Source: Eledone cirrhosa
Taxonomy: Eukaryota
Length of the DNA stretch: 64,000 nucleotides
NCBI GenBank assembly: GCA_964016885.1
Contig: OZ024754.1
Coordinates: 2,976,001-3,040,000, forward strand
Direction of reading: 5' to 3'
This document shows, piece by piece, positions 7,161 through 64,000 of this stretch. Numbering within the stretch: position 1 is the first letter of the stretch; every line of letters starts with the position of its first letter. A model generated the notes under the pieces. The model was not told the DNA's origin, ran no database searches, and saw only the letters and a list, made by a program, of their open reading frames with translations. Made by a program: the position numbers and the translations under genes.

Positions 7161-7353
7161 ATATTTAATATAGAAAAGCCTTTTACAAGATTAGAACTGT
7201 TTCATTCAAAGGAAATCACCGGCTTTCTTGAGGATTTTCTTCAAATGAAACAGTTCTAGTCCTGTAGAAGCCTTTTCTATATTAAATATCTATACTCTGC
7301 TATATATTGAGCACTTTATTTACTGTGGTTACGCCCAATTGAACTCGGGATAC
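7161..7353 (+). mobile_element. Penelope-like pLTR fragment with fold-back inversion and degenerate hammerhead (family H1)
   Basis: Imperfect inverted repeat 7161-7289; right arm gctttc-TTGAGGA-...-GAAACAG...CTGTA-gaag; homologous to 58949-59108. Confidence 0.7.
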
Positions 7354-7560: not shown

Positions 7561-7660
7561 TTTAATATAGAAATGACTTCTACAGGACTAGAACTGTTTC
7601 ATTCAAAATAAATCACCAGGAAAGCACTCTCCTAATGTATTGAGTACCTTACTAACTGTA
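7561..7660. mobile_element. Family H1 insertion with a non-overlapping 5' inversion
   Basis: 7561-7625 is the reverse complement of the ribozyme segment (core CTGGTGA); 7626-7660 is the sense 3' end (actc...gtattgagtacc). Confidence 0.7.
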
Positions 7661-7680: not shown

Positions 7681-7909
7681 TTAACCCTTTAACATTTAAA
7701 CTGGCCATATCCGTCCAGAATTCTCTCACCTCTTTCTGTTCAAACCAGCTGTAACTGTCCACTCATACCGATGTTAAGGTATTGTTCGCAAAATAAATGA
7801 TATCAAAATCTCATGGATTCAATATTATGTGAAATAATTATGTGCGTTAAAGCCTTTACCATGAAAATACAACAGTAAATATAGAGTAATGTAAATGCTA
7901 AAGGGCTAA
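7681..7909 (+). mobile_element. piggyBac-type MITE family A
   Basis: ttaaccctttaacatttaaa ... gtaaatgctaaagggctaa. Confidence 0.85.
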
Positions 7910-8201: not shown

Positions 8202-8430
8202 TTAACCCTTTAATGTTCAAACCGGCCAAAACCGGCCAGAATTCTCTACCCCTTTCTGTTGAAACTGGCTGTAACCGGTCGCTCAAACTGATGTTAAGGT
8301 ATTATTCTCAAAATAAATACTTTTAAAAATCTCATAGATTCAATATTATGTGAGATAATTATGCGAGGTAAAGCCTTTACCATGAAAATATAATAGTATA
8401 TATAGAGTAATGTGAATGCTAAAGGGTTAA
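8202..8430 (+). mobile_element. piggyBac-type MITE family A
   Basis: TTAA at both ends; TIRs ccctttaatg/gctaaaggg. Confidence 0.85.
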
Positions 8431-8949
8431 ATTGATTTCAGTATATTACTGGTATCTATTTATTTATCTTGTCAAGTTGGCCAAGGTTTTGAACTCACAA
8501 GAATAGTTGAGGAAACAAGTGAAGCGTGATATAGCATCTATAGAATATTGCTTCTTGACGGCTTTACTAATATATATATATATATGTGTGTATATATGTA
8601 TGTGTTTGTGTGTGTGTCATCATCATCATCATCATCATCGTTTAACGTCTATCTTCCACGCTAGCATGGGTTTAGACGGGGGTGTGTGTATATATATATG
8701 TGTGTGTATGTGTGTATATATATATGTGTGTGTGTGCATATCTGTGTATACATATGTGTATGTGTGTGTGTAAATACATATATATATCTGTGTGTATATA
8801 TATATATCTGTATATGTATCTGTATGTGTATATATTTATAGGTATATCTATATATATATATACATATCTATGTGTATGTGTGTATGTATATATATATATA
8901 TATATATATTTATAAGTTTATGTATATATGTGTTTTATAATTTTTAGTG

Positions 8950-10421: not shown

Positions 10422-10590
10422 TTAACCCTTTAACATTTAAACCAGCCATATCCAGCCAGAATTCTCTCACCTCTTTCTGTTCAAGTTGGCCATAACTGGC
10501 CACTCATACTGACATTAATGTATTATTCTCAGAATAACTAATAACATCATCAACATCTCGTAGATTCCATACATGGAGAGTAAAGCAGGT
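10422..10590 (+). mobile_element. Truncated MITE family A inserted after a tRNA-like SINE head (about 10358-10421)
   Basis: ttaaccctttaacatttaaaccagccatatccagccagaattctctcacc... Confidence 0.75.
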
Positions 10591-11452
10591 ACTGGCACAT
10601 GTTGCAGTGCAGTATGTATCCAGTTTGGAATAAGTGGGTACACTGTATTCCTGTGCCGTAAGAAGTTGCACACACACAAGTGTGTGTGACAGGAAGGACA
10701 TCTGGCTGTAAATCATTGCCCCAGAAAGTCTGACCCATGCCAGCATTGAAAATTCAATGTAAAAAGGCTGATGTTGATACTTGATCTGTTCTCATCTATT
10801 GTACTGAAGTAAACCTACTAAACTGAGATCAGTGTACAATGTAACCTCATTACTCAAATACTATTTACTTAGAGGAATGTCTAGCTTGGTAAACCAAAGC
10901 AAGGTTTGAACCTGATACCAGAGTACCATCTTCAGCTTTTTAGAGCTTGTTTTACACCCAATATATAAATCATCACGTGTAAGCATAAATAAGTGTGACA
11001 CTTGACCTCAAATATGTAATTTCACCTCCTTCCACCCTGGCTGTAAGTTTATCTCCTAACACCTGTGATTATGTTAAGGAAAACTACCAACATTCAGCCC
11101 TTCTAGATTACATGGGAACTTGTTTAAAAAGAAATCTGACTGCTAATTACAAACTTCTAAAGCCAGTGTTTTTCTTCTGAACAATTTGTTTACTGTTCAG
11201 TGAGCTGAGAAAATGTTGACTCGTTCATCTGTGCTTATTTTCTTCATTGCTTATATTCTTTCTTGGCTGAAGTTAGCTTTCTATACAAATCTGGTCTCTT
11301 GATCAGATTTTGTTTAATAAATTTTATAATAAAAGTCATCGTCTATCAACTATAATAATATACCATGTGCATTTGTATCATCATCATTTTGTCTGCTTTT
11401 CTATGCTTGCATGGGTTGGATGGGCCTTCTCTAGTACAGCTTCCCTTCACTC

Positions 11453-22619: not shown

Positions 22620-22899
22620 TTAACCCCTTTGATAGAAACCTGATCAAAACTTCCTCTGGTTTTATGAAATAAAACCACCTCCTTTTAAACCGGCCCATAT
22701 CTTGCTAGAATTCTCTCACCTCTTTCTGTTCAAACCAGCTGTAACTAGCCACTCATACTAATGTTAAGGTATTGTTCTTAAAATAAATAACCTCAAAATC
22801 TCATAGATTCAATATTATGTGAAATAATTATGTGAGGTAAAGCCTTTACTGTGAAAATATAATAGTAAATATAGTGTAATGTAAATTCTAAAGGGTTAA
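22620..22899 (+). mobile_element. Chimeric TTAA MITE: family B left end joined to family A body and right end
   Basis: ttaacccctttgatagaaacc...aaaccacctcctttt (B) joins at tttaaa to ccggcccatatc...aaagggttaa (A). Confidence 0.7.
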
Positions 22900-24979: not shown

Positions 24980-24995
24980 TAGGGATAGATAGATA

Positions 24996-26722
24996 GTTAC
25001 TCCATAGGTTGACAGACAGATAGGTAGATAGACAGATAGTCCATAGGTAGATAGATAGTCCATATATAGATAGATAGTCCATATATAGATAGATAATCCA
25101 TAGGTAGATAGATAGTCCATATATAGATAGATAGTCCATATATAGATAGATAGTCTATAGATAGATAGATAGTCCATAGGTAGATAGATAGTCCATATAT
25201 AGATAGATAGTCTATAGATAGATAGATAGTCCATAGGTAGATAGATAGTCCATATATAGATAGATAGTCCATATATAGATAGATAATCCATAGGTAGATA
25301 GATAGTCCATATATAGATAGATAGTCCATATATAGATAGATAGTCTATAGATAGATAGATAGTCCATAGGTAGATAGATAGTCCATATATAGATAGATAG
25401 TCTATAGATAGATAGATAGTCCATAGGTAGATAGATAGTCCATATATAGATAGATAGTCCATATATAGATAGATAATCCATAGGTAGATAGATAGTCCAT
25501 AGATAGATAGATAGTCCATAGGTAGATAGATAGTCCATATATAGATAGATAGTCCATATATAGATAGATAATCCATAGGTAGATAGATAGTCCATAGGTA
25601 GATAGATAGTCCATAGGTAGATAGATAGTCTATAGGTAGATAGATAGTCCATATATAGATAGATAGTCTATAGGTAGATAGATAATCCATATATAGATAG
25701 ATAATCCATATATAGATAGATAATCCATATATAGATAGATAATCCATATATAGATAGATAGTCTATAGGTAGATAGATAATCCATAGATAGATAGATAGT
25801 CTATAGGTAGATAGATAGTCCATAGGTAGATAGATAGTCCATAGGTAGATAGATAATCCATATATAGATAGATAATCCATAGGTAGATAGATAATCCATA
25901 GATAGATAGATAATCTATATATAGATAGATAATCCATAGGTAGATAGATAGATAATCCATAGGTAGATAGATAGATAATCCATAGGTAGATAGATAATCC
26001 ATAGGTAGATAGATAATCCATAGATAGATAGATAGTCCATATATAGATAGATAGTCCATAGGTAGATAGATAATCCATATATAGATAGATAATCCATAGG
26101 TAGATAGATAGATAGTCTATAGGTAGATAGATAATCCATATATAGATAGATAATCCATAGGTAGATAGATAATCCATAGATAGATAGATAATCTATATAT
26201 AGATAGATAGTCTATAGGTAGATAGATAATCCATAGGTAGATAGATAATCCATAGATAGATAGATAATCTATATATAGATAGATAATCCATAGGTAGATA
26301 GATAATCCATAGATAGATAGATAATCTATATATAGATAGATAGTCTATAGGTAGATAGATAATCCATAGGTAGATAGATAATCCATAGATAGATAGATAA
26401 TCTATATATAGATAGATAATCCATAGGTAGATAGATAGATAGTCTATAGGTAGATAGATAATCCATATATAGATAGATAGTCCATAGGTAGATAGATAAT
26501 CCATAGGTAGATAGATAATCCATAGATAGATAGATAATCCATAGGTAGATAGATAATCCATAGGTAGATAGATAATCCATAGGTAGATAGATAATCCATA
26601 GATAGATAGATAGTCCATAGGTAGATAGATAGTCTATAGGTAGATAGATAATCCATAGGTAGATAGATAATCCATAGGTAGATACCCCATAGACTGATAG
26701 ATAGGTAGATAGATACTCCATA
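24996..26722. repeat. 1.7-kb (GATA)-derived minisatellite, 19/23-bp units such as agatagatagtccataggt
   Basis: Direct periodicity; explains the MDYLSIYGL ORFs. Confidence 0.97.
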
Positions 26723-27105: not shown

Positions 27106-27351
27106 CCTTCCCACTCTTGCAACTGCTGGTCCTGAAAACAGGCGAGAATATATAGTTTTATCGTCTGTGTAAATGAGGTGATTAATCTCATTTGCACATG
27201 TATGTGTGTGTGTATGTACATATGTGTGTGTATGTATGTATATGTGTGTATATGTATGTGTGTGTGTGTGTGTAGTAAAATATCGTTGGATGTGAACAAG
27301 GAAAAGAGTGCTCAATAAGGTGTGGAAGCTGATATATATATATATATATAA

Positions 27352-27466
27352 ACATAGGTTACGCATGTTTGTGGAATACTCAGCCACACGTTAATTTCAC
27401 GAGCACGCTGTTCCATTGATCGGATCAACTGGGGCACTCGTCGTCGTCACCGACGGAGTACATTCC

Positions 27467-27467
<1 letters not shown>
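27352..27467 (+). mobile_element. SINE 3' fragment between (TA)n tracts
   Basis: gtggaatactcagccac...gatcggatcaactgg...cgtcgtcgtcaccgacggag; the gtggctgagcattccac motif recurs inverted at 36387. Confidence 0.55.
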
Positions 27468-27534
<67 letters not shown>

Positions 27535-27659
27535 CTATTTTCTTCGCTAAATTTATTATGTAGCTAGAATTGATTAGATTGCTATTTGACCTCCGTTTAT
27601 GTTTTTGTTTGTTTTTAAATAAGTAATCTATTTCACGTGGACAGCTGTTATTAGTGCAA

Positions 27660-27697
<38 letters not shown>

Positions 27698-27850
27698 TGT
27701 TCTAGTCGGGGGTTATCATCATCTCTCTATCTCTCTCTGTCAACACACACACGCACAAATATATAGATATGTGTATATATATATAACCAAAGATTAATAT
27801 GGTTCATTGATTACTCAATGAATATAGTTTTACAATAGATTAAAAGCACT

Positions 27851-28078
27851 CTAACCCTTTAATGTTCAAGCCGGCCAAAACCGGCCAGAATTCTCTACCT
27901 TTCTCTGTTGAAACTGGCTGTTACTGGTCTCTCAAACTAATGTTAAGGTATTGTTCTCAAAATAAATACTTTCAAAATCTCATAGATTCGATATTATGTG
28001 AGATAATTTTGTGAGATAAAGCATTTACGATGAAAATATAATAGTATATATAGAGTAATGTGAATGCTAAAGGGCTAA
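27851..28078 (+). mobile_element. piggyBac-type MITE family A, same subfamily as 8202-8430
   Basis: Shares diagnostic taatgttcaa and gtgaatgct variants with 8202. Confidence 0.85.
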
Positions 28079-28145
28079 AGCACTCTGCCAATACTGGAAT
28101 TGATCCATCAAGACAGTTGAGGTATGTCACACATCAATTCATGTA

Positions 28146-28207
28146 TTTTATCTGACGAGGACGTACTGAAAAAGCAGCACAGTACCTTCGAAATATATAT
28201 AATAAAA
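28146..28207 (+). ncRNA. Minimal type I hammerhead ribozyme motif, sense to the host gene
   Basis: UUUUAU-CUGACGA-GGAcGUACUG(aaaaagcagca)CAGUACcUUC-GAA-AU(AUAU)AU-A^AUAAAA; predicted cleavage after 28201. Confidence 0.85.
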
Positions 28208-28240
28208 CATATATTTTCATTATGTGAACGTCTTCATTAG

Positions 28241-28274
<34 letters not shown>

Positions 28275-28398
28275 GGAAAAAATGAAACGAAATTTCATTT
28301 CTCACGTACATATATATATGTGTGCATGTATGTATGTATATATATATACATACATACTACTGTACGTCTGTATACATATATGTATGTACGTATACATA

Positions 28399-28430
<32 letters not shown>

Positions 28431-28433
<3 letters not shown>

Positions 28434-28731
28434 CGAAGGAAGTGTGGTAAAGAACCAGATGGACCATAACGCACTAGCGTACTCAATACTGAGGTAGAGT
28501 ACTCAATACGTAGTAGAGTGGGTAATAGGAAAATGTTTAACCCCGACGGCAGATCTCAACCCGTTTCGACGGCTATTTCTGGAGTCCAGAAATAGCCGTC
28601 GAAACGGCTTGAGCTCTGCCGTCGGGGTTAAACATTTTCCTATATATATATAACGAAGGAAGTGTGGTAAGGAACTAGGTGGACCATAACGCACTAGAGC
28701 TCAGCCGTCGGGGTCCTGACTCTTTTCCTAT
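28431..28731 (-). mobile_element. Two adjacent (TA)n-inserted family H2 elements; the first has a 59-bp fold-back palindrome (28525-28643)
   Basis: Arms differ at 2 of 59 positions with a 1-nt loop; they contain GAAACGGCT-tgagctc-(A/T)GCCGTC-gggg, the 3' half of a hammerhead; homologous to 30874-31078. Confidence 0.8.
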
Positions 28732-28828
28732 ATATATATATATAAGAACAGATTAAAGTTTAAGCAAAGAATCGCTGCTTTCACCCTTAACGGGATCTTC
28801 TGAAAATAAAAAAAATCGGATTTATTAT

Positions 28829-28879
<51 letters not shown>

Positions 28880-29232
28880 GCATATACATACTGTATATAC
28901 TAGTGAATAAGTCGCACCGTTTTCTACGAAAATATATAAACATCCAGCATGCGACCTATATACGGTGTATGTATGTATGTATGTGTGTGTGTGTGTGTAT
29001 ATATATATGTGTTTGTGTGTATAATGCATTATTAATATATAACATAATATTATACTATTGGTATATATTATATTACATATATGCAGCAGTATATACAGTT
29101 GTATATTATATCATATAAACTAGTCGTGTCAGGTTGTGTTAAATCCCTTTATCAAGCTAACTCTTCTGTGCCATCTCTTTCTCGTATATATATATGTGTG
29201 TGTTCGTATATATATATGTGTTTGTGTGTTCG

Positions 29233-29265
<33 letters not shown>

Positions 29266-29440
29266 TCGTATATATATATATATGTGTGTGTGTTCATATA
29301 CATAGGTGTGTGTGTGTTCGTATATATATATATGTGTGTGTGTGTTCGTTTATATATGTGGGTGTGTGTGTTCATATACATATATGTGTGTGTTCGTATA
29401 TATATGTGTGTGTGTTTGTTTATATGTGTGTGTGTGTGTG

Positions 29441-29489
<49 letters not shown>

Positions 29490-29490
29490 T

Positions 29491-29521
<31 letters not shown>

Positions 29522-30116
29522 CCTTTCCTCTTTCGCTCCTTACCTCTCTTTCTATTTCCTCTGTCTTTCCTTTCCACTCTCATTTCATCTCTCTCTCTCA
29601 TTTCCACACACTCTCTTTCATAATCCGTGTTCACTCCCCCCCCCCCCCCTATCATATTTCCACAGTTACTGACTATATCTCACTATCGTTGACTTTCGTT
29701 GTCCCAATCGAAGTTCAATATTACCATTCGAGTTGAAGCAATCTCCTCTCTTTTCTTTGGTTGGCCCTTGTATTTAGATTATCAGTCCTTTATTTTTAAA
29801 AACGTTTACATGACCCGCTGTGGGGAGTGTTTGCGGGCACCGCCCCCATGACCCTCTCGGGAATAGTTTACGAAGAAGAAAGGAGAAATTCAATTAAAAA
29901 AGAAACTGACATTTTCATTAGTAAATTACTATAAACTACTATTTGAAACATCATTTAACAAAATTTCTCTAAAAAGATTATACTTGTTTCTACTTTAGGC
30001 ACAAGGCCAGCGATTACCCAGTGCATTACTGGTACTTTATTTAGTACTGGTACTATATAAAAAGATTATACTGAAAGCTTTTAATATGTATGTATATATA
30101 TAATGTGTGTGTTCAT

Positions 30117-30251
30117 ATAATTAAGGGACGAAGCTTATCGAATAGAATTAACACAACTTCGTAATCTAATTAAGTCTGTATTATTAAAATTCGAACCTAA
30201 CTAATTAGTGTACACATACGCTAATCAGGGAGGAAGACAACTTCGTGTGGG

Positions 30252-30252
<1 letters not shown>
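30117..30252. mobile_element. (TA)n-inserted repeat, unclassified
   Basis: aagcttatcgaatagaa...taatctaattaagtctgtattattaaaat...gtgtacac shared with 60561-60694. Confidence 0.65.
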
Positions 30253-30283
<31 letters not shown>

Positions 30284-30355
30284 TAGGGTGCTCCCCCCAA
30301 AAAATATATACAAACTTCAACAGCATTCTAATCAAGGTCATTTATGGGGGACACC

Positions 30356-30416
<61 letters not shown>

Positions 30417-30749
30417 TGTTGCATGTATTTTAAATTGAGTTATGCTGTCTTCAGTGTTTGGCAATTTCTAGACAACTCTATCATGGAAACAATTGTTAGA
30501 CTGTAAATAAATCTCCTTGTTTGTACTGTTGACCATGTTATTTTTCACTTTTATATATATATATATATATTCGATATGCCTCATGAAATAATACAGCCAA
30601 TTTTCCACGCAATACATTTAGTTAGCACCCCGAAGAGCTTAATTAGGAATATACTCACTTATTTCCTAATGTTTGTTGAGTGAGTTGGAATTTGGCCGGA
30701 GTATCGCTAAAAACCTTTCTCCGATAATGTATTTATTTATTATATATTA

Positions 30750-30803
<54 letters not shown>

Positions 30804-30873
30804 GTTGTTGACGGACCCAACATATTTATCAATGCCAGTACCGGTTGTATCTCAGCGCACTCAATATATATAT

Positions 30874-31078
30874 ATAGGAACAAGTAGGACCCCGACGGCT
30901 GAGCTCAAGCCGTTTCAACGGCTAATTCTGGACAATTGAGTCCAGAATTAGCCGTCGAAACGGCTTGAGCTCAGCCGTCGGGGTCCTACTTGTTCCTATT
31001 ACCCACTCTACTACCCTAAGTATTGAGTACTTTCGTGCGTTATGGTCCATCTGGTTCCTTACCACATTTCCTTCGTTA
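30874..31078 (+). mobile_element. Family H2 element with a 60-bp fold-back palindrome (30874-30999) in (TA)n
   Basis: Arms differ at 1 of 60 positions, 6-nt loop aattga; sense arm reads TGA-g...c-GAAACGGCTtgagctcAGCCGTC-ggggtc. Confidence 0.8.
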
Positions 31079-31162
31079 TATATATATATATAGTGTTATA
31101 TCATAAAAAAACCGGGGCCAGTTTCAGGCGGGTTGGTAGCTGTATATTCTATGGTCTGTTGC

Positions 31163-31780: not shown

Positions 31781-31817
31781 CAATTATTTTATCATTAGTG
31801 TTTGTGTCAAATAACAT

Positions 31818-32047
31818 TTAACCCTTTAGCATTTAGATTACTCTATATATACTATTGTAATTTTGTGGTAATGGCTTTATTTTACATAATTATCTCACAT
31901 AATATCGAATCTACGAGATTTTGATATTTATTTATTTTGAGAACAATACTTTAACATGAGTATGAGCAGCCACTTATGGCCGGTTTGAACAGAAAAAAGT
32001 GAGAGAATTCTGACCAGATATGGCCGGTTTAAATGCTAAAGGGTTAA
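31818..32047 (-). mobile_element. piggyBac-type MITE family A
   Basis: ttaaccctttagcattta ... taaatgctaaagggttaa, perfect TIRs including TTAA. Confidence 0.9.
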
Positions 32048-36250: not shown

Positions 36251-36975
36251 ACCTTGTTATTTGGGACCTGACTACTTCAACCACCAGATGACATATCAAC
36301 TGAGAGCAGTATCAAGATAGACTAAATAATGAGTGTTTCAGTTTGGTTGGTCAATGTAAAGGCCTGCTTATGAAATTTACATGCAAGTGGCTGAGCATTC
36401 CACATACATGTGGGCTCATAACGTGATTTTCAGGGAGATTCAGTATGAAACAGTGTATGACAAGACTCACCCCTTTGAAATTACGGATACAGTCCATCTG
36501 GTGGGCTTCCAAACAGTTTCCATCTACCAAATTTCATTCACAAGGCATGGGTCGACCCCCTCTCTCTCTCTCTCTCTCTGTATACATATCTCTCTCTATC
36601 TCTCTATCATTTACTCTTTCTCTCTCCCTCTCTCTATCCTCAACAGCTCCTCTCCGACATAATTCTGTAATTCCTTACCATCAACCAACACCACTACCAC
36701 CACCACCACCCATCACCACCACCACCCACTGCCATCCACCACCACCACCACCATCCACAGGGTTGTTTATCAACATGTGGTAGCAATGAATTTCCCATTT
36801 GACTTGACAACAGGGTTATAGAGAGAGGAGTGGTGAGAGATGACTTCTCAACTGATTCCTCCCCTTCACTGTTCTTGACCACTCCCTTTCTCTCTCTCTG
36901 GTTCCCCCTCTCACTCTCCACCACACAGAGGCACTGTTGTCACCTACACCCCACTCTTTTGACCAATGGTTAGTC

Positions 36976-39953: not shown

Positions 39954-40157
39954 TTAACCCTTTATCATTTACATTACTGTATATTTACTATTATATTTTC
40001 ACAGTAAAGGTTTTACCTTACAAAATTATCTCGCATAATATTTTGATATTATTTATTTTGAGAACAATACCTTAACATAAGTATGAGCAGCCGGTTTGGA
40101 CATAAGGTGGTGAGGGAATTTTGATCGGATACAACCAGTTTAAATGCTAAAGGGTTA
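39954..40157 (-). mobile_element. piggyBac-type MITE family A
   Basis: ttaaccctttatcattta ... taaatgctaaagggtta. Confidence 0.85.
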
Positions 40158-41970: not shown

Positions 41971-42847
41971 TGTGTGTATGTTTGTCTTTTAGTTACATTT
42001 CCTTAGTAAAATTATAAAATTACAATTATTCTTAGCTGACTTAGCTTATTATATATTTATCAGACATTTTGCTCAACACACTCCTACACACAAGTATTAT
42101 GCAAGTAAAGCATTTATTCTTGCAAAGCAAAAATAATAGATATTAAAACAAACAAACAAATCTTTATTTGTTTTTCCACCCTATCAGCTTTTATTGCCAT
42201 ACATTTTCATTGGCGGAGGTGCTTGAATAAATAAAAAGAAAGTATAAACATCAATTCAACAAATTATCTCCAGCTACATAAGAACTATTTAATGAATTAA
42301 AGTTAATTTCTGTGACACTGATAACAGGGTTAATTATACTAAATGAAGCAGAGACTAGAAATTAACTCGTATTTATGGGCTTAAAACACTTAACTGCTCA
42401 CTTTAAAGCTATTGCTGGTGTAGATGAGAGCAATGAAGGGAGAGTGAGTGAGAAAGATTGGCTAGTTTTTATACCCAACACATAAACTCTGGTTATATCA
42501 CAGAATGGTTTTAGTTAAGCTAGAAATATTCTTCCTTTTATTATCCTTTTACTGGTTTTTGACTGTAGCCTTCAAGAGTTTAATTGATCAAATTTTCTCT
42601 TCTTCCTGTTCCTCAGTACTCATTTTGAAAGTCTGGTGTTAATTTTGTTGGTCTCTGTTTGCTAAGTCAGTAAGTCACAAGACATAAAAATTAACCAACA
42701 TCGTTTTACTAAGAAAGGTATTACACATAGGTATGGTTTAAGTCAGAGTTTGCCAAACTTTTTCAAACGAGGGACCCTTTTTGTTTCATAAACTTTTGAG
42801 GGAGCTCCAATGTCTAATATTGTTGCAAGCTTTCTACGGTCCCTTCA

Positions 42848-43635
42848 GACACTTTGTTTGTCGAGCTTTCTCTGGCTTGATGCCATATCTTGGGGTGCAA
42901 ATCAGTGAACATTAAGGAGATTGTCAAGTCTATAACACAGCTGAGAAGTCCTTCTGACACTTTGTCGAGCTTTCTCTGGCTTGATGCCATATCTTGGGGT
43001 GCAAATCAGTGAACATTAAGGAGATTGTCAAGTCTATAACACAGCTGAGAAGTCCTTCTGACACTTTGTCGAGCTTTCTCTGGCTTGATACCATATCTTG
43101 GGGTGCAAATCAGTGAACATTAAGGAGATTGTCAAGTCTATAACACAGCTGAGAAGTCCTTCTGACACTTTGTCGAGCTTTCTCTGGCTTGATGCCATAT
43201 CTTGGGGTGCAAATCAGTGAACATTAAGGAGATTGTCAAGTCTATAACACAGCTGAGAAGTCCTTCTGACACTTTGTCGAGCTTTCTCTGGCTTGATACC
43301 ATATCTTGGGGTGCAAATCAGTGAACATTAAGGAGATTGTCAAGTCTATAACACAGCTGAGAAGTCCTTCTGACACTTTGTCGAGCTTTCTCTGGCTTGA
43401 TACCATATCTTGGGGTGCAAATCAGTGAACATTAAGGAGATTGTCAAGTCTATAACACAGCTGAGAAGTCCTTCTGACACTTTGTCGAGCTTTCTCTGGC
43501 TTGATACCATATCTTGGGGTGCAAATCAGTGAACATTAAGGAGATTGTCAAGTCTATAACACAGCTGAGAAGTCCTTCTGACACTTTGTCGAGCTTTCTC
43601 TGGCTTGATACCATATCTTGGGGTGCAAATCAGTG
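42848..43635. repeat. 104-bp tandem repeat, about 7.5 nearly identical copies
   Basis: gacactttgtcgagc at 42956, 43060, 43164 and onward; diverged single monomers near 44460-44550 and 48110-48200. Confidence 0.97.
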
Positions 43636-43948: not shown

Positions 43949-45037
43949 TGTATATATATATGTATGTATGTTTGTATGTATGTGTTTGTGTATGTATATC
44001 TATTTGTGTGTGTTGACGTGTTTGCATTTGTCAGTGTAATCATGTTATTAATGTAATTATTGTGTTATTATTGTATCATATATTATCGTATGTTGTTAGT
44101 GGAAGTTAATTGCTATGTATTAATTATCGTTACTGCTATTATCGGTTTTTCGTTCCTTTAATTTGTAATGCAGTTCACTTTCATGGTGACACTGAATTGT
44201 TTTTAAGTTGCCACCGGCATTATTTGAGCCTAAAATTCCACTCTAACCATCACAATCATCATCATAATCATGATCATCATTTAACACCCATTCTCTCTGC
44301 TAGCAAGGGTTAGACGGGTTGTCACAGACCAAGGCAGTACTTAATCAGGGCTACTGACCTCTTATATGAACTGGGGACTGCATATCACTTACATTCCTAC
44401 GCACACACTCACACGCTCTCTCTCCAGAATGCCTTTACTGCACTTTTGTGATAACAGCGCTATGGAGGCTGTCATGTCTCCGACATAGCCAAAGAGTCCT
44501 GTTGACACTTTGTTTGGCATTGTTTCTCTAATCCGATGCCCTCTCACTAACTGTGGAATGAAACACAGTAATTATAGAGAGACATTTTTGAAAAGTACAA
44601 ACCAACACTATGACTGCATCACATGAAAAAATACTCTTGTACTGTAAATTTTCACAATAATCTGTCCACTAGTAAAGATACTATAAACATTTGTATTAAT
44701 AAACTACATGACACCTACAACAGCAAGTCATTCTTGAAAAGTAAAAAGATTAATATTTTTATGCTAATACTACAAATTTCTACTGTAATCTTTTCACTAG
44801 TTAAGATACTATAAACATTTGAATTAACAAACCACATTAGCAAGACATTCTTGAAAAGTATAAAATAACACTATGGCTGCATCACATGGAAAATTAATCT
44901 TTACAGCAAATTTTCACAAAAATCTGTCCACTAGTAAAGATACTATAAACATTTGAATTAACAAGCCTGTTTTTAAATATTTTCTGCTAAATTGTTACAG
45001 GATGTTAAAAGTATATTTGGTGATATTCCAGAAGTGT

Positions 45038-45690
45038 TTAGCATTGGTAGTAGTAGTACCAAAACTGCTCTCTAAAATGTCAATATATCTTTAGTATTAG
45101 TAGAAGTACCAAAACTGCTCTCTAAAATGTCAATATATCTATAGTATTAGTAGGAGTACCAAAACTGCTCTCTAAAATGTCAATATATCTATAGTATTAG
45201 TAGGAGTACCAAAACTGCTCTCTAAAATGTCAATATAACTTCAGCATTGGTAGGAGTACCAAACTACTCTTTAAAATGTCAATATATCATAAGCATGATA
45301 GTGGTGTCAAAACTGCTCTCTAAAATGCCAATATATTATTAGCATTAATAGTAGTACCAAAACTGCTCTCTAAAATGCCAATATATTATTAGCATTAATA
45401 GTAGTACCAAAACTGCTTTCTAAAATGCCAATATATTATTAGCATTAATAGTAGTACCAAAACTGCTCTCTAAAATGCCAATATATTATTAGCATTAATA
45501 GTAGTACCAAAACTGCTTTCTAAAATGCCAATATATTATTAGCATTAATAGTAGTACCAAAACTGCTTTCTAAAATGCCAATATATTATTAGCATTAATA
45601 GTAGTACCAAAACTGCTTTCTAAAATGCCAATATATTATTAGCATTAATAGTAGTATGAGAACTGCTCTCTAAAATGCCAATCTTCAGCA
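45038..45690. repeat. 50-bp minisatellite agtagtaccaaaactgctctctaaaatgccaatatattattagcattaat, about 13 copies
   Basis: Direct periodicity with a 5'-to-3' variant gradient. Confidence 0.95.
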
Positions 45691-50992: not shown

Positions 50993-51291
50993 TTAACCCT
51001 TTAGTATTTAGTCCGGCTGTATCCAGCCAGAATTCTTTTTCTGTTCAAACGGGCTGTAACCGGTCAGAACTCTCTCACTTTATTCTGTTCAAACTGGCCA
51101 TAACTGGCCAGAATTCTTTCACTTCTTTCTGTTCAAACCAGCCATAACTGGCCGCTTATACCAACATTATCAGGTATTGTTCTCGAAATAAATAAATAAC
51201 ATCATCAAAATCTTGTAGATTCGATATTATGTGAGATAAAGCCTTTACTGGAAAAATACAATAGTAATGTAATGTAAATGCTAAAGGGTTA
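50993..51291 (+). mobile_element. piggyBac-type MITE family A with an internal ~45-bp triplication
   Basis: TIRs present; cagaattct...tctgttcaaac...taac occurs 3 times. Confidence 0.85.
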
Positions 51292-52248: not shown

Positions 52249-52425
52249 CCTCTCTTATATATAAATATATATATATAGGTATATATATATAGGTTTTATT
52301 TACAGCTCGAGTTTGGTAAATAAAATAAAAACATAAATTTAAATATTATATATATATATATATATATATAATATTTAAATTTATGTTTTTATTTTATTTA
52401 CCAAACTCGAGCTGTAAATAAAACC

Positions 52426-52467
<42 letters not shown>

Positions 52468-52614
52468 AGAGGTCTTATTTACAGCTCAAGTTTGGTAAAT
52501 GAAATTAAAAAAACTTAAATATTATATATATATATATATATATATATGATATTCAAATTTAAGTTTTTATTTTATTTTATCTTATTTACCAAAGTTGAGC
52601 TGTAAATAAGACCT
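52249..52614. repeat. Two tandem (TA)n-centred palindromes
   Basis: 52291-52426 is a perfect inverted repeat around (TA)n with outer cctctctt/aagagagg; 52470-52614 is an imperfect second copy. Confidence 0.9.
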
Positions 52615-53423
52615 GTAGAACTAATTTAAAATTCTTGAAAAATGCTGCTGGCAACAGTCATGGAAGAAACTTGAACTAAAATAAGAAATTTAAACTAAAA
52701 GACAAATGCTAAATTTTCTTTCAAATCATCTTTTCTTTATCTTGTTTTCACTGAAAATAATAAGAATCTTCTGAAAGTCTAAAGCAACCCCTCTCCCCAC
52801 CCTCTCTCCACAAATCATAATAATAATAAACAAACTGGAGTTAGAAATGGGGAAGGGATGGAACCTTTTTATTTTTATTAATTCTTTATTTTACGTTTTT
52901 CGATTTTTTTTTCTTTTTTTTTTTTTTTCCCCCCAACTGTTTTCCCAGACTGTGTGTGTTAAAGGTGTGTGTGTGTGTGTGTGTCTGTGTGTGTGTGTGC
53001 CATAAATCAGTGACCACCAACAGTAAGCAGTATCACATGTTGAAATGTTGGCACAAAAATCAGCTCATTTTGGGCAACCCTACAGACTACTGTCTGATAT
53101 TGCTTTGATCCCATCCACCTATATCCCTCTCTCCACCTACCTCCACACCTCCTCCACCTACCTCCACACCTCCTCCACCTACCTCCACACACATCCACCC
53201 CTACCTATACACCACCTCCACCCATACTATCTCTCCCTCCAAAGAACATCCATTCTCTCTCTCTCTCTACACACACACACACTCACAGACACATATTCAC
53301 TCACATTCACACACACACCAAATATCTGTCACTACTTCATACCAGTTTCTATTCCTTTTGTCTTTTACTTGGATTGTTTCTTCCTTTCCAACACAAGTTG
53401 GTTACTTCTAATAACTTCAACAC

Positions 53424-58880: not shown

Positions 58881-58948
<68 letters not shown>

Positions 58949-58953
<5 letters not shown>

Positions 58954-59108
58954 ATAGAAGGAGCTTCTACAGGACTAGTACTGTTTCATTCAGATGAAAT
59001 CTTCAGGAAGAAGATTTCATCTGAATGAAACAGTACTAGTCCTGTAGAAGCTCCTTCTATAAAATAAAAAAATTTTACTCTGCCATGTATTGAGTACCTT
59101 ACTTACTA
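58949..59108 (+). mobile_element. Family H1 element with a perfect 56-bp fold-back palindrome (58949-59065) in (TA)n
   Basis: Arms 58949-59004 and 59010-59065 are exact reverse complements, loop aggaa; sense 3' end tactc...gtattgagtacc. Confidence 0.85.
58964..59010 (-). ncRNA. Type I hammerhead ribozyme motif in the inverted arm of the H1 element
   Basis: Minus strand CUUC-CUGAAGA-uUUC(aucu)GAAu-GAA-ACAG(uACUAGUc)CUGU-A^GAAG; intact core, weak stem II with U-U at 10.1/11.1. Confidence 0.75.
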
Positions 59109-60565: not shown

Positions 60566-60924
60566 TGAATCAAAGCTTATTGAATAGAAAGGACACAACT
60601 TCAGTCGTTTTGTCATTCAATAATCTAATTAAGTCTGTATTATTAAAATGCAAACCCACCCGATTAAAGTGTACACTTATACATTAATCAGTCGAAATGA
60701 TTACCCCAAATCAATTTTCTATCCAATGTTCTTAATTCACCACCTTCTGGTATGTAATAGCATCACTATTTTTTCTCTATTTCTATTATGTATTTTATTG
60801 ATTCTAAGCTTAGACAACTGAGGTAAACATGCTTCATTGATGAGGTCTAACAAGCCTGAGACATGCCTGCTGCTTTTACCATTTGGTTTTAAAGCCAATA
60901 TTCATTCCCGAATACATTGTCTTT

Positions 60925-61142
60925 AAAATAGAAATAAAACCTTTTGCCAGATTTTTGACTAAAGAAATTTTAGCCTGATAGTGGGGTATAGAACCCTCTA
61001 AGGCCTGATAGTGGGGTATAGAACCCTCTAAGAAATGGAAAAGGAAGAGTATTGGTGTACATTCCTTAGAGGGTTCTCACCCCAGTTATCAGGCTAAAAT
61101 TTCTTTAGTCAAAGATACGGTGAAAGCTTCTATTTCTATTTT
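60925..61142. mobile_element. Fold-back/MITE-like element with ~85-bp imperfect arms
   Basis: tttgactaaagaaattttagcctgata...agaaccctctaag versus cttagagggttct...tatcaggctaaaatttctttagtcaaa; 30-bp tandem duplication in the left arm. Confidence 0.75.
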
Positions 61143-63167
61143 CAAACTGGCTTGCTGTTTCAAAACAAACTTGCTTGTCAACATACATTGTCTTTATTTT
61201 TTCAAAAAAATTTACATTAGCTGATATTATTAGAGTTATCTCTCATGTTTTTCTTTTTCTTTTCTTTTTTTTTAATGGTTTTAAATGCAGGAACTTTTGT
61301 GTTCTAATTGTTAGAATAAATTCAGTTAATTGTAGTTTTTCAGCTCTCACTCTGTTATATATGTGAGAATTATACCATATATCTGTGTGTGTATATATGT
61401 GTGTGTGTGTTTCTGCATGATTAAAAGACACATACACACACGCACAGTGCATTAAATCTCTTCCTCTCTCTTCTCCTCTACAACCTCCATGCCTTGCCCT
61501 CAACATGGTTGTGACTCAACAACTTGTACAATTTTCAATGACTATTATTTTTCTACTTTGTCATCTAATCAAATTTCACATTATCTCCATACAGAAATTT
61601 ATATTTTGCTCGGCAGAGCTGTTCACATTCATTAAAATTAATTCCAGTTTGTATTTCCTTCATTGATTGGCAGTCGGTGGCGAGAGAGAACGATGAGGTG
61701 GGAGAAGCTGGTGGGGGGAAAGAGAGCAGTTTGATTTATTTATGTACAAAATTGTTAAACTCACTACCCAGACAAAAACTGACATTCTCTTCTACAAATC
61801 AATGGTATTTATTCTGACTGTATATTTCTTAACTTGTCTTGGAGACTATTTTTGTCATTGACGGAAAATACATTCTCCTATTCAAATTTATTAATTATTT
61901 ATTTTATTTTATTCTTTTTTTCTATTTTTTTTTATATTCTGCTAAGCGTGTTTTTTTTTTAAATTTTATAGTATTTTAGTTTTTTTTTTTAATAATCCAG
62001 TTAGTAGGAGTGAAGTAATGTATCTATAGTAGCTTAGTTCTATGTGGTAGGATATAATGGATTCTAATTTAGGCACAAGGCCAGCAAGTTTATGGTGGAA
62101 GAGGAAGTAGACGATACCAACCTAATTGAGTACTTTACTAGTACTTTATTTTATTGACACCCCGCCCACACACACACAAACCTCACACCAGAAAGATGAA
62201 AGGCAGAACTAACCTCAGTCTACCAATTCTGCCAATCCTAATCGACCACCACCACCACCACTATTGGGATTTCTAAGTTACACACTGAAAGCCAACATAC
62301 ACGCACACATATGTCCAACCCATGCTAGCATGGAAAAGCAAACATAAAGATGATGATGATGATGATACACACACACATACACAAGCACATGTACATATAG
62401 ATATAAATACATGTTTTTGTATATTCTGGTTTGTGTATGTAGCTCATGTGGCCACCATACAGTTGTAATATTTGGTGATTTGCTGTGGTTTGCTGTGGTT
62501 TGCTGTACTAGAAAAGACCTGTCTTCCAGTACAAGCACTATGGTGCTAAAAAAGTAAATGTGGTGAGAGATCAGAGACGAGGGACTACATGGGGTGATGA
62601 GGTCCCTTTTAGACTTCAATGGACGAAACAACCTCTCTAGTGCTGGTGTTATGATAGAAATGCACTCAGTACTCCTTGTAAATTAGGGGACAGAACAAAC
62701 TCAAGGCCACATAGGGTAGAGGGAACATTTTTGGTGTTGACAACCTCTGCTGTGTTGGTGCCACAATAAAATATAATAATGCACACACTCTGTAAAATGG
62801 TCGGCGCTTGAAGAGAGTTACAATCAGAGTTACTCTTCAGTCTTGTCGAGCACTTAACAACTTCTTTAGTGCTGTTGCTTTGATAAAATGTACCCAGTAC
62901 ACACTATAGAGTGCTTGGCATTAGGAAGGGTATAAACAGCTGTTGAAACTATGCCAAAATATGAAATATATGTGTAAGATGTGTTTATTCATCCCCGTCT
63001 TGACTTGGACCGTGACTGCCTGTCCAATGGACATATGATGATGATGATGATTGTGTGTGTGTGTGTGTGTGTGTAAAGATATAGACTTAAATACGAACAG
63101 CTCATTGTAACTGTAATTCACCCTTTAACATCCTATAATGATTTAGCAGAAATTGTCTTCGTAGCTT

Positions 63168-64000
63168 TGTTTGTTAATTCAAATGTTTGTAGTACCTGGT
63201 TTGCTAATTCAAATGTTTATAGTACCTGCTTTGTTAATTCAAATGTTTATAGTACCTGGTTTGTTAAGTCAAATGTTTGTAGTACCTGGTTTGTTAAGTC
63301 AAATGTTTATAGTACCTGGTTTGTTAAGTCAAATGTTTGTAGTACCTGGTTTGTTAAGTCAAATGTTTGTAGTACCTGGTTTGTTAAGTCAAATGTTTAT
63401 AGTACTTGGTTTGTTAAGTCAAATGTTTATAGTACCTGGTTTGTTAAGTCAAATGTTTGTAGTACCTGGTTTGTTAAGTCAAATGTTTGTAGTACCTGGT
63501 TTGTTAAGTCAAATGTTTGTAGTACCTGGTTTGTTAAGTCAAATGTTTGTAGTACCTGGTTTGTTAAGTCAAATGTTTATAGTACCTGGTTTGTTAAGTC
63601 AAATGTTTGTAGTACCTGGTTTGCTAATTCAAATGTTTATAGTACCTGCTTTGTTAATTCAAATGTTTATAGTACCTGGTTTGTTAAGTCAAATGTTTGT
63701 AGTACCTGGTTTGTTAAGTCAAATGTTTGTAGTACCTGGTTTGTTAAGTCAAATGTTTGTAGTACCTGGTTTGTTAAGTCAAATGTTTGTAGTACCTGGT
63801 TTGTTAAGTCAAATGTTTGTAGTACCTGGTTTGTTAAGTCAAATGTTTGTAGTACCTGGTTTGTTAAGTCAAATGTTTGTAGTACCTGGTTTGTTAAGTC
63901 AAATGTTTATAGTACCTGGTTTGTTAAGTCAAATGTTTGTAGTACCTGGTTTGTTAAGTCAAATGTTTGTAGTACCTGGTTTGTTAAGTCAAATGTTTAC
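63168..64000. repeat. 30-bp minisatellite ttgttaagtcaaatgtttgtagtacctggt, about 28 copies, runs off the window; amplified from MITE family C
   Basis: Preceded by the family C terminus ccctttaacatcctataatgatttagcagaaa (63121); unit is the reverse complement of gatactataaacatttgaattaacaaac. Confidence 0.95.

What the first reader, a model, noticed from the sequence alone, without database searches (positions are those of the whole stretch)
28431..31078. H2 palindromes carry copy-private variants symmetrically in both arms
Seen: between atagga and ccccgacggc one copy reads aaatgtttaa in both arms (28525-28643), another reads acaagtagga in both arms (30874-30999) and a third reads aaagagtcagga (28697-28731). 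All inverted arms stop at the same ttcctat, running into (AT)n. Inference: each palindrome is made at insertion from a single template by internal priming on a TAT microhomology with the TA target, or is homogenised by intra-hairpin conversion, rather than being an inherited TIR. The two large copies are also inverted relative to each other about 2.3 kb apart and could pair long-range.
Basis: partly seen in the sequence, partly recalled or inferred. Interest (0 to 1): 0.72.

Follow-up and report, generated by a model that had tools for sequence, protein, structure and literature searches.

The report
Penelope-like retroelement hairpin stubs in microsatellites
These short DNA hairpins look like truncated ends of a known class of jumping gene, each hairpin made afresh when the copy inserted into an AT microsatellite; the layout is already described, but the junctions hint at how the poorly understood insertion step works.

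Summary
Two palindromes (A 28525-28643, C 30874-30999) sort by locus at 7 of 7 informative columns, none by left/right role. The third copy (B) is not a palindrome, so it does not test symmetry. Each unit has two head-to-head arms with fixed outer ends in (TA)n and a private centre. One arm carries a 79-94 nt extension, so this is not a MITE. The sense strand carries the 3' half of a type I hammerhead. A second family in the window shows the same layout with the full core. This matches the published inverted, 5'-truncated pseudo-LTR plus tail of Penelope-like elements (PLEs). No reverse transcriptase or full-length copy was found, so membership is structural only. Junctions of six copies fit two primed cDNAs (tail-end and internal start) better than fold-back. 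One old copy argues against ongoing arm conversion. Not found in the papers read: tail-less ends 17-19 nt past the ribozyme cut site in three unrelated families, and a tail hairpin shared by two. New member of a known kind; interest 0.38.

The parts
28431..28524 (-). Copy A tail (94 nt, including a 15-nt internal duplication); fixed distal end runs into (TA)n 28401-28432
   Evidence: tandem finder row 28475-28519
28525..28583 (-). Copy A tailed arm (hammerhead-sense on minus strand); carries 2 arm-private changes
28584..28643 (+). Copy A tail-less inverted arm; owns the single central base; ends at the internal site in (TA)n 28641-28652
28601..28623 (+). 3' half of a type I hammerhead in A: GAAA, 5-bp stem III with near-palindromic loop, GUC triplet (predicted cut after 28623)
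   Evidence: no Rfam hammerhead hit
28651..28697 (-). Copy B tail-only piece (47 nt), same distal end as A and C
28697..28731 (+). Copy B tail-less arm, starting inside stem III loop; no overlap with its tail piece, so no palindrome
28745..28831 (-). Unit G: neighbouring, unrelated hammerhead-like stub (core one base off consensus, 28759-28805) ending 17 nt past its predicted cut site in (TA)n; about 25 nt at the other end unassigned
   Evidence: no Rfam hammerhead hit; hammerhead fold is not the minimum-energy fold
30801..30866 (-). TA-flanked piece abutting C that begins with a variant of the tail motif; no other copy in the window
30874..30933 (-). Copy C tail-less inverted arm; 1 arm-private change; ends in (TA)n 30864-30876
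30934..30939 (+). Copy C 6-nt centre spacer, probably belonging to the tailed arm (its last 2 bases match the A centre)
   Evidence: assignment is inference
30940..30999 (+). Copy C tailed arm; hammerhead 3' half at 30957-30979 with 6-bp stem III and an 8-nt palindrome spanning the loop and its closing base
31000..31078 (+). Copy C tail (79 nt) with the shared ACTC...TATTGAGTA stem-loop at 31005-31029; ends in (TA)n 31077-31092
58948..59107 (+). Second family (my label H1), copy D: 57 of 57 perfect palindrome plus about 41-nt tail in (TA)n; complete type I hammerhead motif on the tail-less arm (minus strand 58964-59010)
7161..7330 (+). H1 copy E: old palindrome plus tail; arms diverged at 7 of 57 sites; stem I pairing and near-consensus core on the tailed arm. 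Tail end approximate
7561..7660 (+). H1 copy F: tail-less arm (minus strand) joined head-to-head to a tail-only piece with no overlap, the counterpart of B. Tail end approximate

Best explanation
A, B and C are three independent, heavily 5'-truncated insertions of the pseudo-LTR (pLTR) end of a Penelope-like retroelement, or of a non-autonomous derivative, into (TA)n microsatellites. Inferred steps: (1) The element's GIY-YIG/RT protein, supplied in trans, nicks both strands of (TA)n. (2) One nick primes reverse transcription at the distal end of the tail. The other primes at a fixed internal site about 17-20 nt 3' of the hammerhead cut site. Both use RNA from one source copy, one molecule or two. 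(3) The two cDNAs grow toward each other on opposite strands and are joined with 0-2 nt of microhomology. If the tailed cDNA runs past the internal site, the result is a palindrome whose arms share the source's variants (A, C, D, E). If it stops inside the tail, there is no palindrome (B, F). The arms then mutate independently. Shown in sequence: layout, fixed outer ends, private centres, locus-sorted variants, hammerhead-like motif. Taken from papers: two-strand nicking and two RT start sites bounding the tail (PAc in vitro). Inferred: PLE identity of this family and the two-cDNA joining.
For: Locus-sorted arms: 7 of 7 informative columns in H2; 9 substitution columns by locus and 0 by role in H1 D versus E. 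Outer ends fixed in 3 of 3 H2 copies at both sites; 6 of 6 centres differ. In 2 of 6 copies (B, F) the pieces do not overlap, the deletion-type inversion typical of L1 twin priming (PMC2837659 passages). In D the 5-nt spacer continues the tail-less arm into the hammerhead core and stem I, and in A the central base belongs to the tail-less arm. A tailed cDNA folding back on itself cannot supply those bases. A relaxed full type I hammerhead scan gave 6 hits against a mean of 0.77 (maximum 2) in 30 shuffles; 3 hits are H1 arms, 1 is unit G, 2 are unrelated. Published PLE hallmarks match: adjacent inverted 5'-truncated copy, tail at one end only, (TA)n bias (PMC8557442; PMC3846280); palindromic loop III and hammerhead pairs on opposite strands (PMC4209133); insertion beside earlier copies (PMC6765202). 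PAc cuts and extends both strands, is predicted to be a dimer, starts RT at two sites that bound the tail and uses uncleaved RNA (PMC11167929).
Against: No RT or GIY-YIG sequence links H2 to a PLE: 0 of 235 non-repetitive frames of 50 aa or more reached a Pfam curated cut-off (244 low-complexity frames not scanned), and protein searches with the two open frames of C gave nothing usable. H2 itself lacks the CUGANGA half and any stem II partner in 3 of 3 copies, and the half motif alone is common (25 hits versus a shuffle mean of 14). No Rfam hammerhead model matched H2, D or G. The hammerhead fold is not the minimum-energy fold for D (-1.7 vs -4.8 kcal/mol) or G (-1.2 vs -8.8). The H2 tail (79 nt) is twice the published 30-40 nt. 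In all 4 palindromes both arms stop within 1-9 nt of each other, and 9 of 10 arms stop 36-45 nt upstream of the cut site. Fold-back gives matching stops for free, whereas twin priming needs an extra shared stop. B and F could be later deletions from palindromes. Only 6 copies were examined.
Confidence: 0.6

Rival explanations
1. Same PLE origin, but the inverted arm is made by self-priming: one cDNA (or an antisense RNA) folds back near the ribozyme's 5' stem, is copied backwards and is captured by the target at the TAT microhomology. B and F are then later deletions.
For: Both arms stop at nearly the same template position in 4 of 4 palindromes. Spacers of C and E belong to the tailed arm. 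Self-priming was proposed for PLE palindromes in PMC3846280. The TAT match is rare in the unit (3 of 139 positions).
Against: The spacer of D, a young copy with 57 of 57 paired, and the centre base of A belong to the tail-less arm. 2 of 6 copies have no overlap. The tail-less end is also fixed in those two (exactly in B, within about 3 nt in F).
Confidence: 0.22
2. The stubs come from another (TA)n-targeting retroelement (SINE or LINE partner) that twin-primes, and the hammerhead half in H2 is chance.
For: No PLE ORF found. H2 lacks the 5' core. The half motif occurs about once per 9 kb of strand in shuffles.
Against: H2 shares tail hairpin, layout and cut-site-to-end spacing with H1, which has the full core. 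No poly(A) or tRNA-like part was noticed on reading the units (no tRNA scan run). Overlapping palindromic arms with a one-sided tail are the published PLE signature.
Confidence: 0.09
3. An inherited palindrome whose arms are homogenised after insertion by intra-hairpin conversion or cruciform repair.
For: It would also give locus-sorted variants. It cannot be excluded for A and C alone.
Against: E's arms have drifted apart as far as from F (7 of 57 versus 6-7 of 54). A and C keep 2 and 1 arm mismatches. The single-copy tails of A and C differ at 6 of 79, similar to the arms' 7 of 60, so source divergence suffices. 5 of the 7 sorted sites cluster in 8 nt (p about 0.006, window width chosen after looking), which fits source variation in a loop. 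Centres are all different.
Confidence: 0.06
4. A MITE or other DNA transposon with fixed terminal inverted repeats and TA target.
For: Short, non-coding, inverted repeats, sits in TA runs.
Against: 0 of 7 informative columns sort by side. The repeat is not terminal on the tailed side (79-94 nt extension). The interior is not conserved. B and F have no inverted repeat.
Confidence: 0.03

Closest known systems
Endonuclease-positive Penelope-like elements (Penelope/Poseidon, Neptune, Nematis, Hydra): inverted pLTR plus tail
   Same: Head-to-head inverted 5'-truncated copy, tail on one end only, fixed 3' ends, microsatellite target, type I hammerhead with palindromic loop III (PMC8557442 passages and section 15; PMC3846280 parts 1-4 of 5; PMC4209133 parts 1-2 of 4; PMC8969392 passages).
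   Different: No ORF or tandem pLTR in the window. Units are 80-213 nt. H2 tail is 79 nt rather than 30-40 nt. Stem III is 4-6 bp with a 7-9 nt loop rather than minimal. Clade cannot be assigned.
PAc (Poseidon of Anolis carolinensis) in vitro mechanism, PMC11167929
   Same: Two RT start sites bounding the tail, AT-rich target cut on both strands, uncleaved ribozyme RNA as template (arms here run through the predicted cut site).
   Different: PAc starts about 85-92 nt past the cut site (+111-118 versus cut at +26, my subtraction) at sites not homologous to the target. Here the proximal start is 17-20 nt past it and has a 3-nt match to (TA)n. The parts I read do not propose how the inverted arm forms.
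L1 twin priming / dual priming (PMC2837659 passages)
   Same: Two primings on opposite target strands giving an inverted piece; gap-type copies B and F look the same.
   Different: The L1 internal site varies (recalled) and normally leaves a deletion. Here the internal site is fixed per family and 4 of 6 copies duplicate about 60 nt into a palindrome. No poly(A).
Non-LTR retrozymes (bioRxiv 10.64898/2026.07.22.740005, parts 1-3 of 5)
   Same: Short non-coding PLE-pLTR derivatives with type I hammerheads.
   Different: Retrozymes are direct tandem repeats with complete ribozymes. These units are inverted, single and, in H2, lack the 5' core.

Membership tests
Penelope-like element (EN+) | ORF with telomerase-like RT and GIY-YIG endonuclease | not testable with these tools
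   Units are non-coding stubs. No Pfam hit at curated cut-off in 235 of 479 frames scanned. No eukaryotic genome collection to reach a full-length copy; 0 exact matches in two scans of the prokaryotic genome collection.
Penelope-like element (EN+) | Adjacent inverted, 5'-truncated copy, head-to-head | tested here: met
   3 of 3 H2 and 3 of 3 H1 copies are head-to-head.
Penelope-like element (EN+) | Tail extension at one end only | tested here: met
   H2 79 nt (94 with a duplication), H1 D about 41 nt. H2 is longer than the published 30-40 nt.
Penelope-like element (EN+) | Type I hammerhead in the pLTR | tested here: inconclusive
   H2: 3' half only. H1: full motif in 3 arms, 1 exact and 2 one base off. 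No Rfam hit. Not the minimum-energy fold.
Penelope-like element (EN+) | Partial tandem (direct pLTR) arrangement | tested here: not met
   No direct tandem of a unit in the 6 copies; A and B are adjacent but separated by (TA)n and differ in sequence. The papers read describe tandems as frequent, not universal, and report solo pLTRs.
Penelope-like element (EN+) | Bias for simple AT-rich / (TA)n targets, TSD often unreadable | tested here: met
   6 of 6 H2 outer ends and both D ends are in TA runs. The outer ends of old copies E and F are degenerate.
MITE / DNA transposon | Inverted repeats at both termini, inherited by side | tested here: not met
   The repeat is internal on the tailed side; 0 of 7 columns sort by side.
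Non-LTR retrozyme | Direct tandem units each with a complete type I hammerhead | tested here: not met
   No tandem units; H2 core incomplete.
Catalytically active hammerhead | Self-cleavage at NUH | not testable with these tools
   Needs an in vitro assay.

The most novel reading that the evidence does not exclude
These stubs are a genomic read-out of the unresolved PLE integration step. A dimeric RT-endonuclease primes from both nicked strands of (TA)n on one RNA, one subunit at the tail end and the other at a site measured about 17-20 nt past the hammerhead cut site, beside a tail hairpin conserved across families. Both cDNAs then run about 60 nt to a shared hard stop (the transcript 5' end or the folded ribozyme) and anneal. 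The ribozyme would act as a positioning scaffold for RT rather than, or as well as, a cutter.
Probability: 0.3. Interest if true: 0.7.

Novelty: new member of a known kind. Interest (0 to 1): 0.38.

Why it matters
The layout is textbook for Penelope-like elements, so the finding itself mainly corrects annotation: such units would otherwise be called MITEs or miRNA hairpins (sub-threshold miRNA hits). The value lies in the mechanism. PMC8557442 (section 15) names formation of tandem/inverted structures and microsatellite bias as unresolved. Very short, abundant stubs like these allow a direct count of who owns the spacer, where each arm starts and stops, and whether arms ever come from different source copies. 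That count would separate twin priming from self-priming without new experiments.

Tried and rejected
Rfam: 0 hits at gathering score in the whole window. E-value scans of three stretches listed no hammerhead family, only hairpin-driven or weak hits below gathering scores. Coding link: two frames of the C tailed arm are open for about 48 codons. Word-seeded searches of longer proteins gave 0 of 29 and 0 of 1 candidates at E up to 1 (proteins of similar or shorter length not searched). The exhaustive search with the sense frame gave 1 hit (E 3.3e-05), an unnamed repetitive 564-aa sequence with 0 Pfam families, judged spurious and not used. Pfam on 235 of 479 frames of 50 aa or more: 4 weak hits, all below curated cut-offs, including a telomerase TEN-domain match at 10507-10791 (E 0.006). 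More copies: 0 exact matches for two H2 patterns in the prokaryotic genome collection, as expected for an animal repeat; viral and metagenome collections stayed unchecked. Single-strand RNA folds of the tailed units are no more stable than shuffles (z from -1.67 to 0.50 for 7 of 7). A circularly permuted (type II) hammerhead reading of H2 was rejected because no CUGANGA follows the downstream hairpin. A and C as the two ends of one composite element was rejected: they differ at 7 arm columns and 6 of 79 tail positions, and the 2.2 kb between them holds microsatellites and other repeats with no recognised ORF. The E tail-less arm row used a wrong anchor; the corrected values are. Lunse et al. 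2017 (PMC5785218) was not available. Two supplementary figures of PMC11167929 are images that yielded only labels; they could bear on start-site spacing.

Full report
Observation. The quoted sequence is correct. Copy A has 59-nt arms at 28525-28583 and 28585-28643 (97% complementary); copy C has 60-nt arms at 30874-30933 and 30940-30999 (98%). Both fold far beyond chance (z -19.6 and -23.4; 0 of 200 shuffles each). Of 60 ungapped columns across the four arms, 49 are invariant, 7 sort by locus, 0 by long/short role, 0 crosswise and 4 are private to one arm. A five-arm tree supports the A pair (96/94) but does not resolve the C pair from the partial B arm. Copy B (28651-28731) is not a palindrome (66 of 200 shuffles as stable), so within H2 symmetry rests on two copies. 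blastn finds only these three copies in the window.

Anatomy. Each H2 unit is two head-to-head pieces of one template in (TA)n. One piece ends at a fixed distal site; the other ends 79 nt further in, at TTCCTAT (3 of 3 each). In A and C the distal piece runs through the internal site, giving palindrome plus tail. In B it stops inside the tail, leaving a gap of about 32 template bases. The centres all differ. Fixed outer ends with variable inner ends is the pattern of target-primed reverse transcription (established knowledge), not of a MITE, whose repeats are terminal and inherited by side. The sense strand carries GAAA, a 5-6 bp stem with a palindromic loop and GUC (28601-28623, 30957-30979): the 3' half of a type I hammerhead. 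That half motif is weak alone (25 hits versus a shuffle mean of 14.0, range 7-20, 30 shuffles; 8 of the 25 are arms discussed here), and no Rfam hammerhead model matched.

A second family decides the reading. A hairpin scan found the same layout in an unrelated family, which I label H1: D (58948-59107), E (about 7161-7330) and F (about 7561-7660). A relaxed full hammerhead scan gave 6 hits against a shuffle mean of 0.77 (maximum 2): three H1 arms, unit G at 28759-28805 directly beside B, and two unrelated sites; none is H2. D versus E arms sort by locus at 9 substitution columns and 4 gap columns and by role at 0, with 7 other and 38 invariant. H1 and H2 share a tail stem-loop, ACTC...TATTGAGTA: 6 matches, all in A (2), C, D, E and F, against a mean of 0.035 in 200 shuffles. 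The motif was derived from these copies, so the control shows only that it is rare; the informative fact is that two otherwise dissimilar families share it. Against the ribozyme reading, the hammerhead fold is not the minimum-energy fold of D or G, and Rfam missed both.

Spacing. The (TA)n run begins 17 nt past the predicted cut site in A, C, D and G (three families), 19 nt in B and E, and 29 nt in the degenerate F: 4 of 7 at exactly 17, 6 of 7 at 17-19. Of 59 half motifs in the window, 8 have a TA run 12-25 nt downstream. Four are A, C, D and G; four are overlapping calls at one A/T-run locus (12672) with distances 17-20. Background is 5.5% of positions. At the other end, 9 of 10 arms stop 36-45 nt upstream of the cut site (positions from my reading of the junctions).

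Mechanism. Arms sharing variants is expected if both are copied from one source at insertion. The single-copy tails of A and C differ at 6 of 79 sites, comparable to the arms' 7 of 60, so source divergence is enough. Conversion is disfavoured because E's arms differ at 7 of 57 sites, as much as each differs from F. Two models of formation remain. Fold-back of the tailed cDNA requires the spacer to belong to the tailed arm. That holds in C and E, but in D the spacer continues the tail-less arm into the core and stem I, in A the central base belongs to the tail-less arm, and B and F have no overlap. Two primings, one per nicked strand, fit 6 of 6 copies, but need a shared stop to explain why both arms end within 1-9 nt of each other in 4 of 4 palindromes. 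A transcript 5' end or a stall at the folded ribozyme would do; neither is shown. B and F could also be later deletions. However, PAc initiates at non-homologous sites in vitro.

Long-range pairing and clustering. Co-folding A and C keeps both local hairpins (118 pairs) and pairs only the tails (75 pairs as RNA, 73 as DNA). Other inverted repeat pairs flank the same interval (27959-28079 with 31817-31937), so I treat this as incidental. Three H2 copies within 2.65 kb is mildly clustered even given that 26 of 111 TA runs lie in 27300-31100 (p 0.015); PLEs are reported to insert beside earlier copies (PMC6765202 passages).

Comparison with what is known. An adjacent inverted 5'-truncated copy, a 30-40 bp tail at one end and (TA)n bias are described for PLEs (PMC8557442, 12 passages and section 15; PMC8969392 passages). 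Head-to-head palindromes and a self-priming proposal are in PMC3846280 (parts 1-4 of 5). PLE hammerheads with palindromic loop III, and pairs on opposite strands, are in PMC4209133 (parts 1-2 of 4). Two RT start sites bounding the tail, cutting and extension of both strands, a predicted dimer and use of uncleaved RNA are in PMC11167929 (parts 1-2 of 4; two image supplements gave labels only). L1 twin and dual priming are in PMC2837659 (passages). Retrozymes are direct tandems (bioRxiv 10.64898/2026.07.22.740005, parts 1-3 of 5, supplements not seen). The unit works like a PLE insertion. Membership is met for the inverted copy, tail and target; inconclusive for the ribozyme; untestable for the ORF. 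No direct tandem is present, which the papers treat as frequent rather than required. The host is unknown. Its microsatellite load recalled cephalopod genomes to me (untested); an Octopus vulgaris repeat paper lists active Penelope families and has no mention of ribozyme or palindrome (passages).

Novelty. The structure is known. In nine literature searches and the parts read, I did not find a twin-priming account of PLE inversions, the 17-20 nt spacing or a cross-family tail hairpin. Key subscription papers (Arkhipova 2006, Evgen'ev and Arkhipova 2005, Lunse 2017; seen only in reference lists) were not read and may cover them. With six copies plus G these remain leads. Verdict: new member of a known kind, interest 0.38; the mechanistic reading has probability about 0.3 and would merit 0.7.

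Noticed in passing
window 58948-59107, 7161-7330, 7561-7660: Second hairpin-plus-tail family (H1) with a complete type I hammerhead motif; D is a perfect 57-bp palindrome, E is old, F is a gap-type copy.
   Followed up: yes
window 28745-28831: Third hammerhead-like stub (G) directly beside copy B. It shares with H1 a U on each side of stem II and ends 17 nt past the predicted cut site.
   Followed up: partly
window 31005-31029, 28480-28519, 59077-59096, 7294-7313, 7626-7646: Tail stem-loop shared by H1 and H2, duplicated in copy A; candidate RT-binding or start element.
   Followed up: partly
window 30801-30866, 27280-27330, 27351-27468: Further pieces beside or between TA runs with variants of the tail motif; 27351-27468 partly matches 36351-36410 (77% over 60 nt). 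Possibly tails of other PLE families.
   Followed up: no
window 52249-52617: Nested palindromes centred on (TA)n runs, with arms of about 55-90 nt and no hammerhead half motif in the scan; a different geometry from H1 and H2.
   Followed up: no
window 60922-61145: Diverged inverted repeat (70%) with an internal direct duplication; MITE-like.
   Followed up: no
window 27852-28079 and 31817-32046 (also 1970-2185, 7681-7909, 8202-8431, 22684-22899, 39954-40157, 51088-51291): Interspersed repeat of about 230 nt with at least 8 copies; two inverted copies flank the H2 cluster.
   Followed up: no
window 30940-30946 with 31046-31054: RNA folds pair the 5' end of the tailed arm with a stretch of the tail (5 bp plus an adjacent helix) in both A and C; it coincides with where the arms stop, but may be chance.
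   Followed up: no
window 30935-31078 (+) and 30931-31077 (-): Two frames open for about 48 codons in C, also open in A apart from its duplication; no homologue found.
   Followed up: yes
window 10507-10791 (-): Weak Pfam match to the telomerase TEN domain (E 0.006, below cut-off); treated as chance.
   Followed up: no
window 24985-26684, 42842-43635, 45037-45682, 63165-63999: Long minisatellite arrays (19-nt unit about 89 copies; periods near 104, 50 and 30-60 nt from self-alignment).
   Followed up: no
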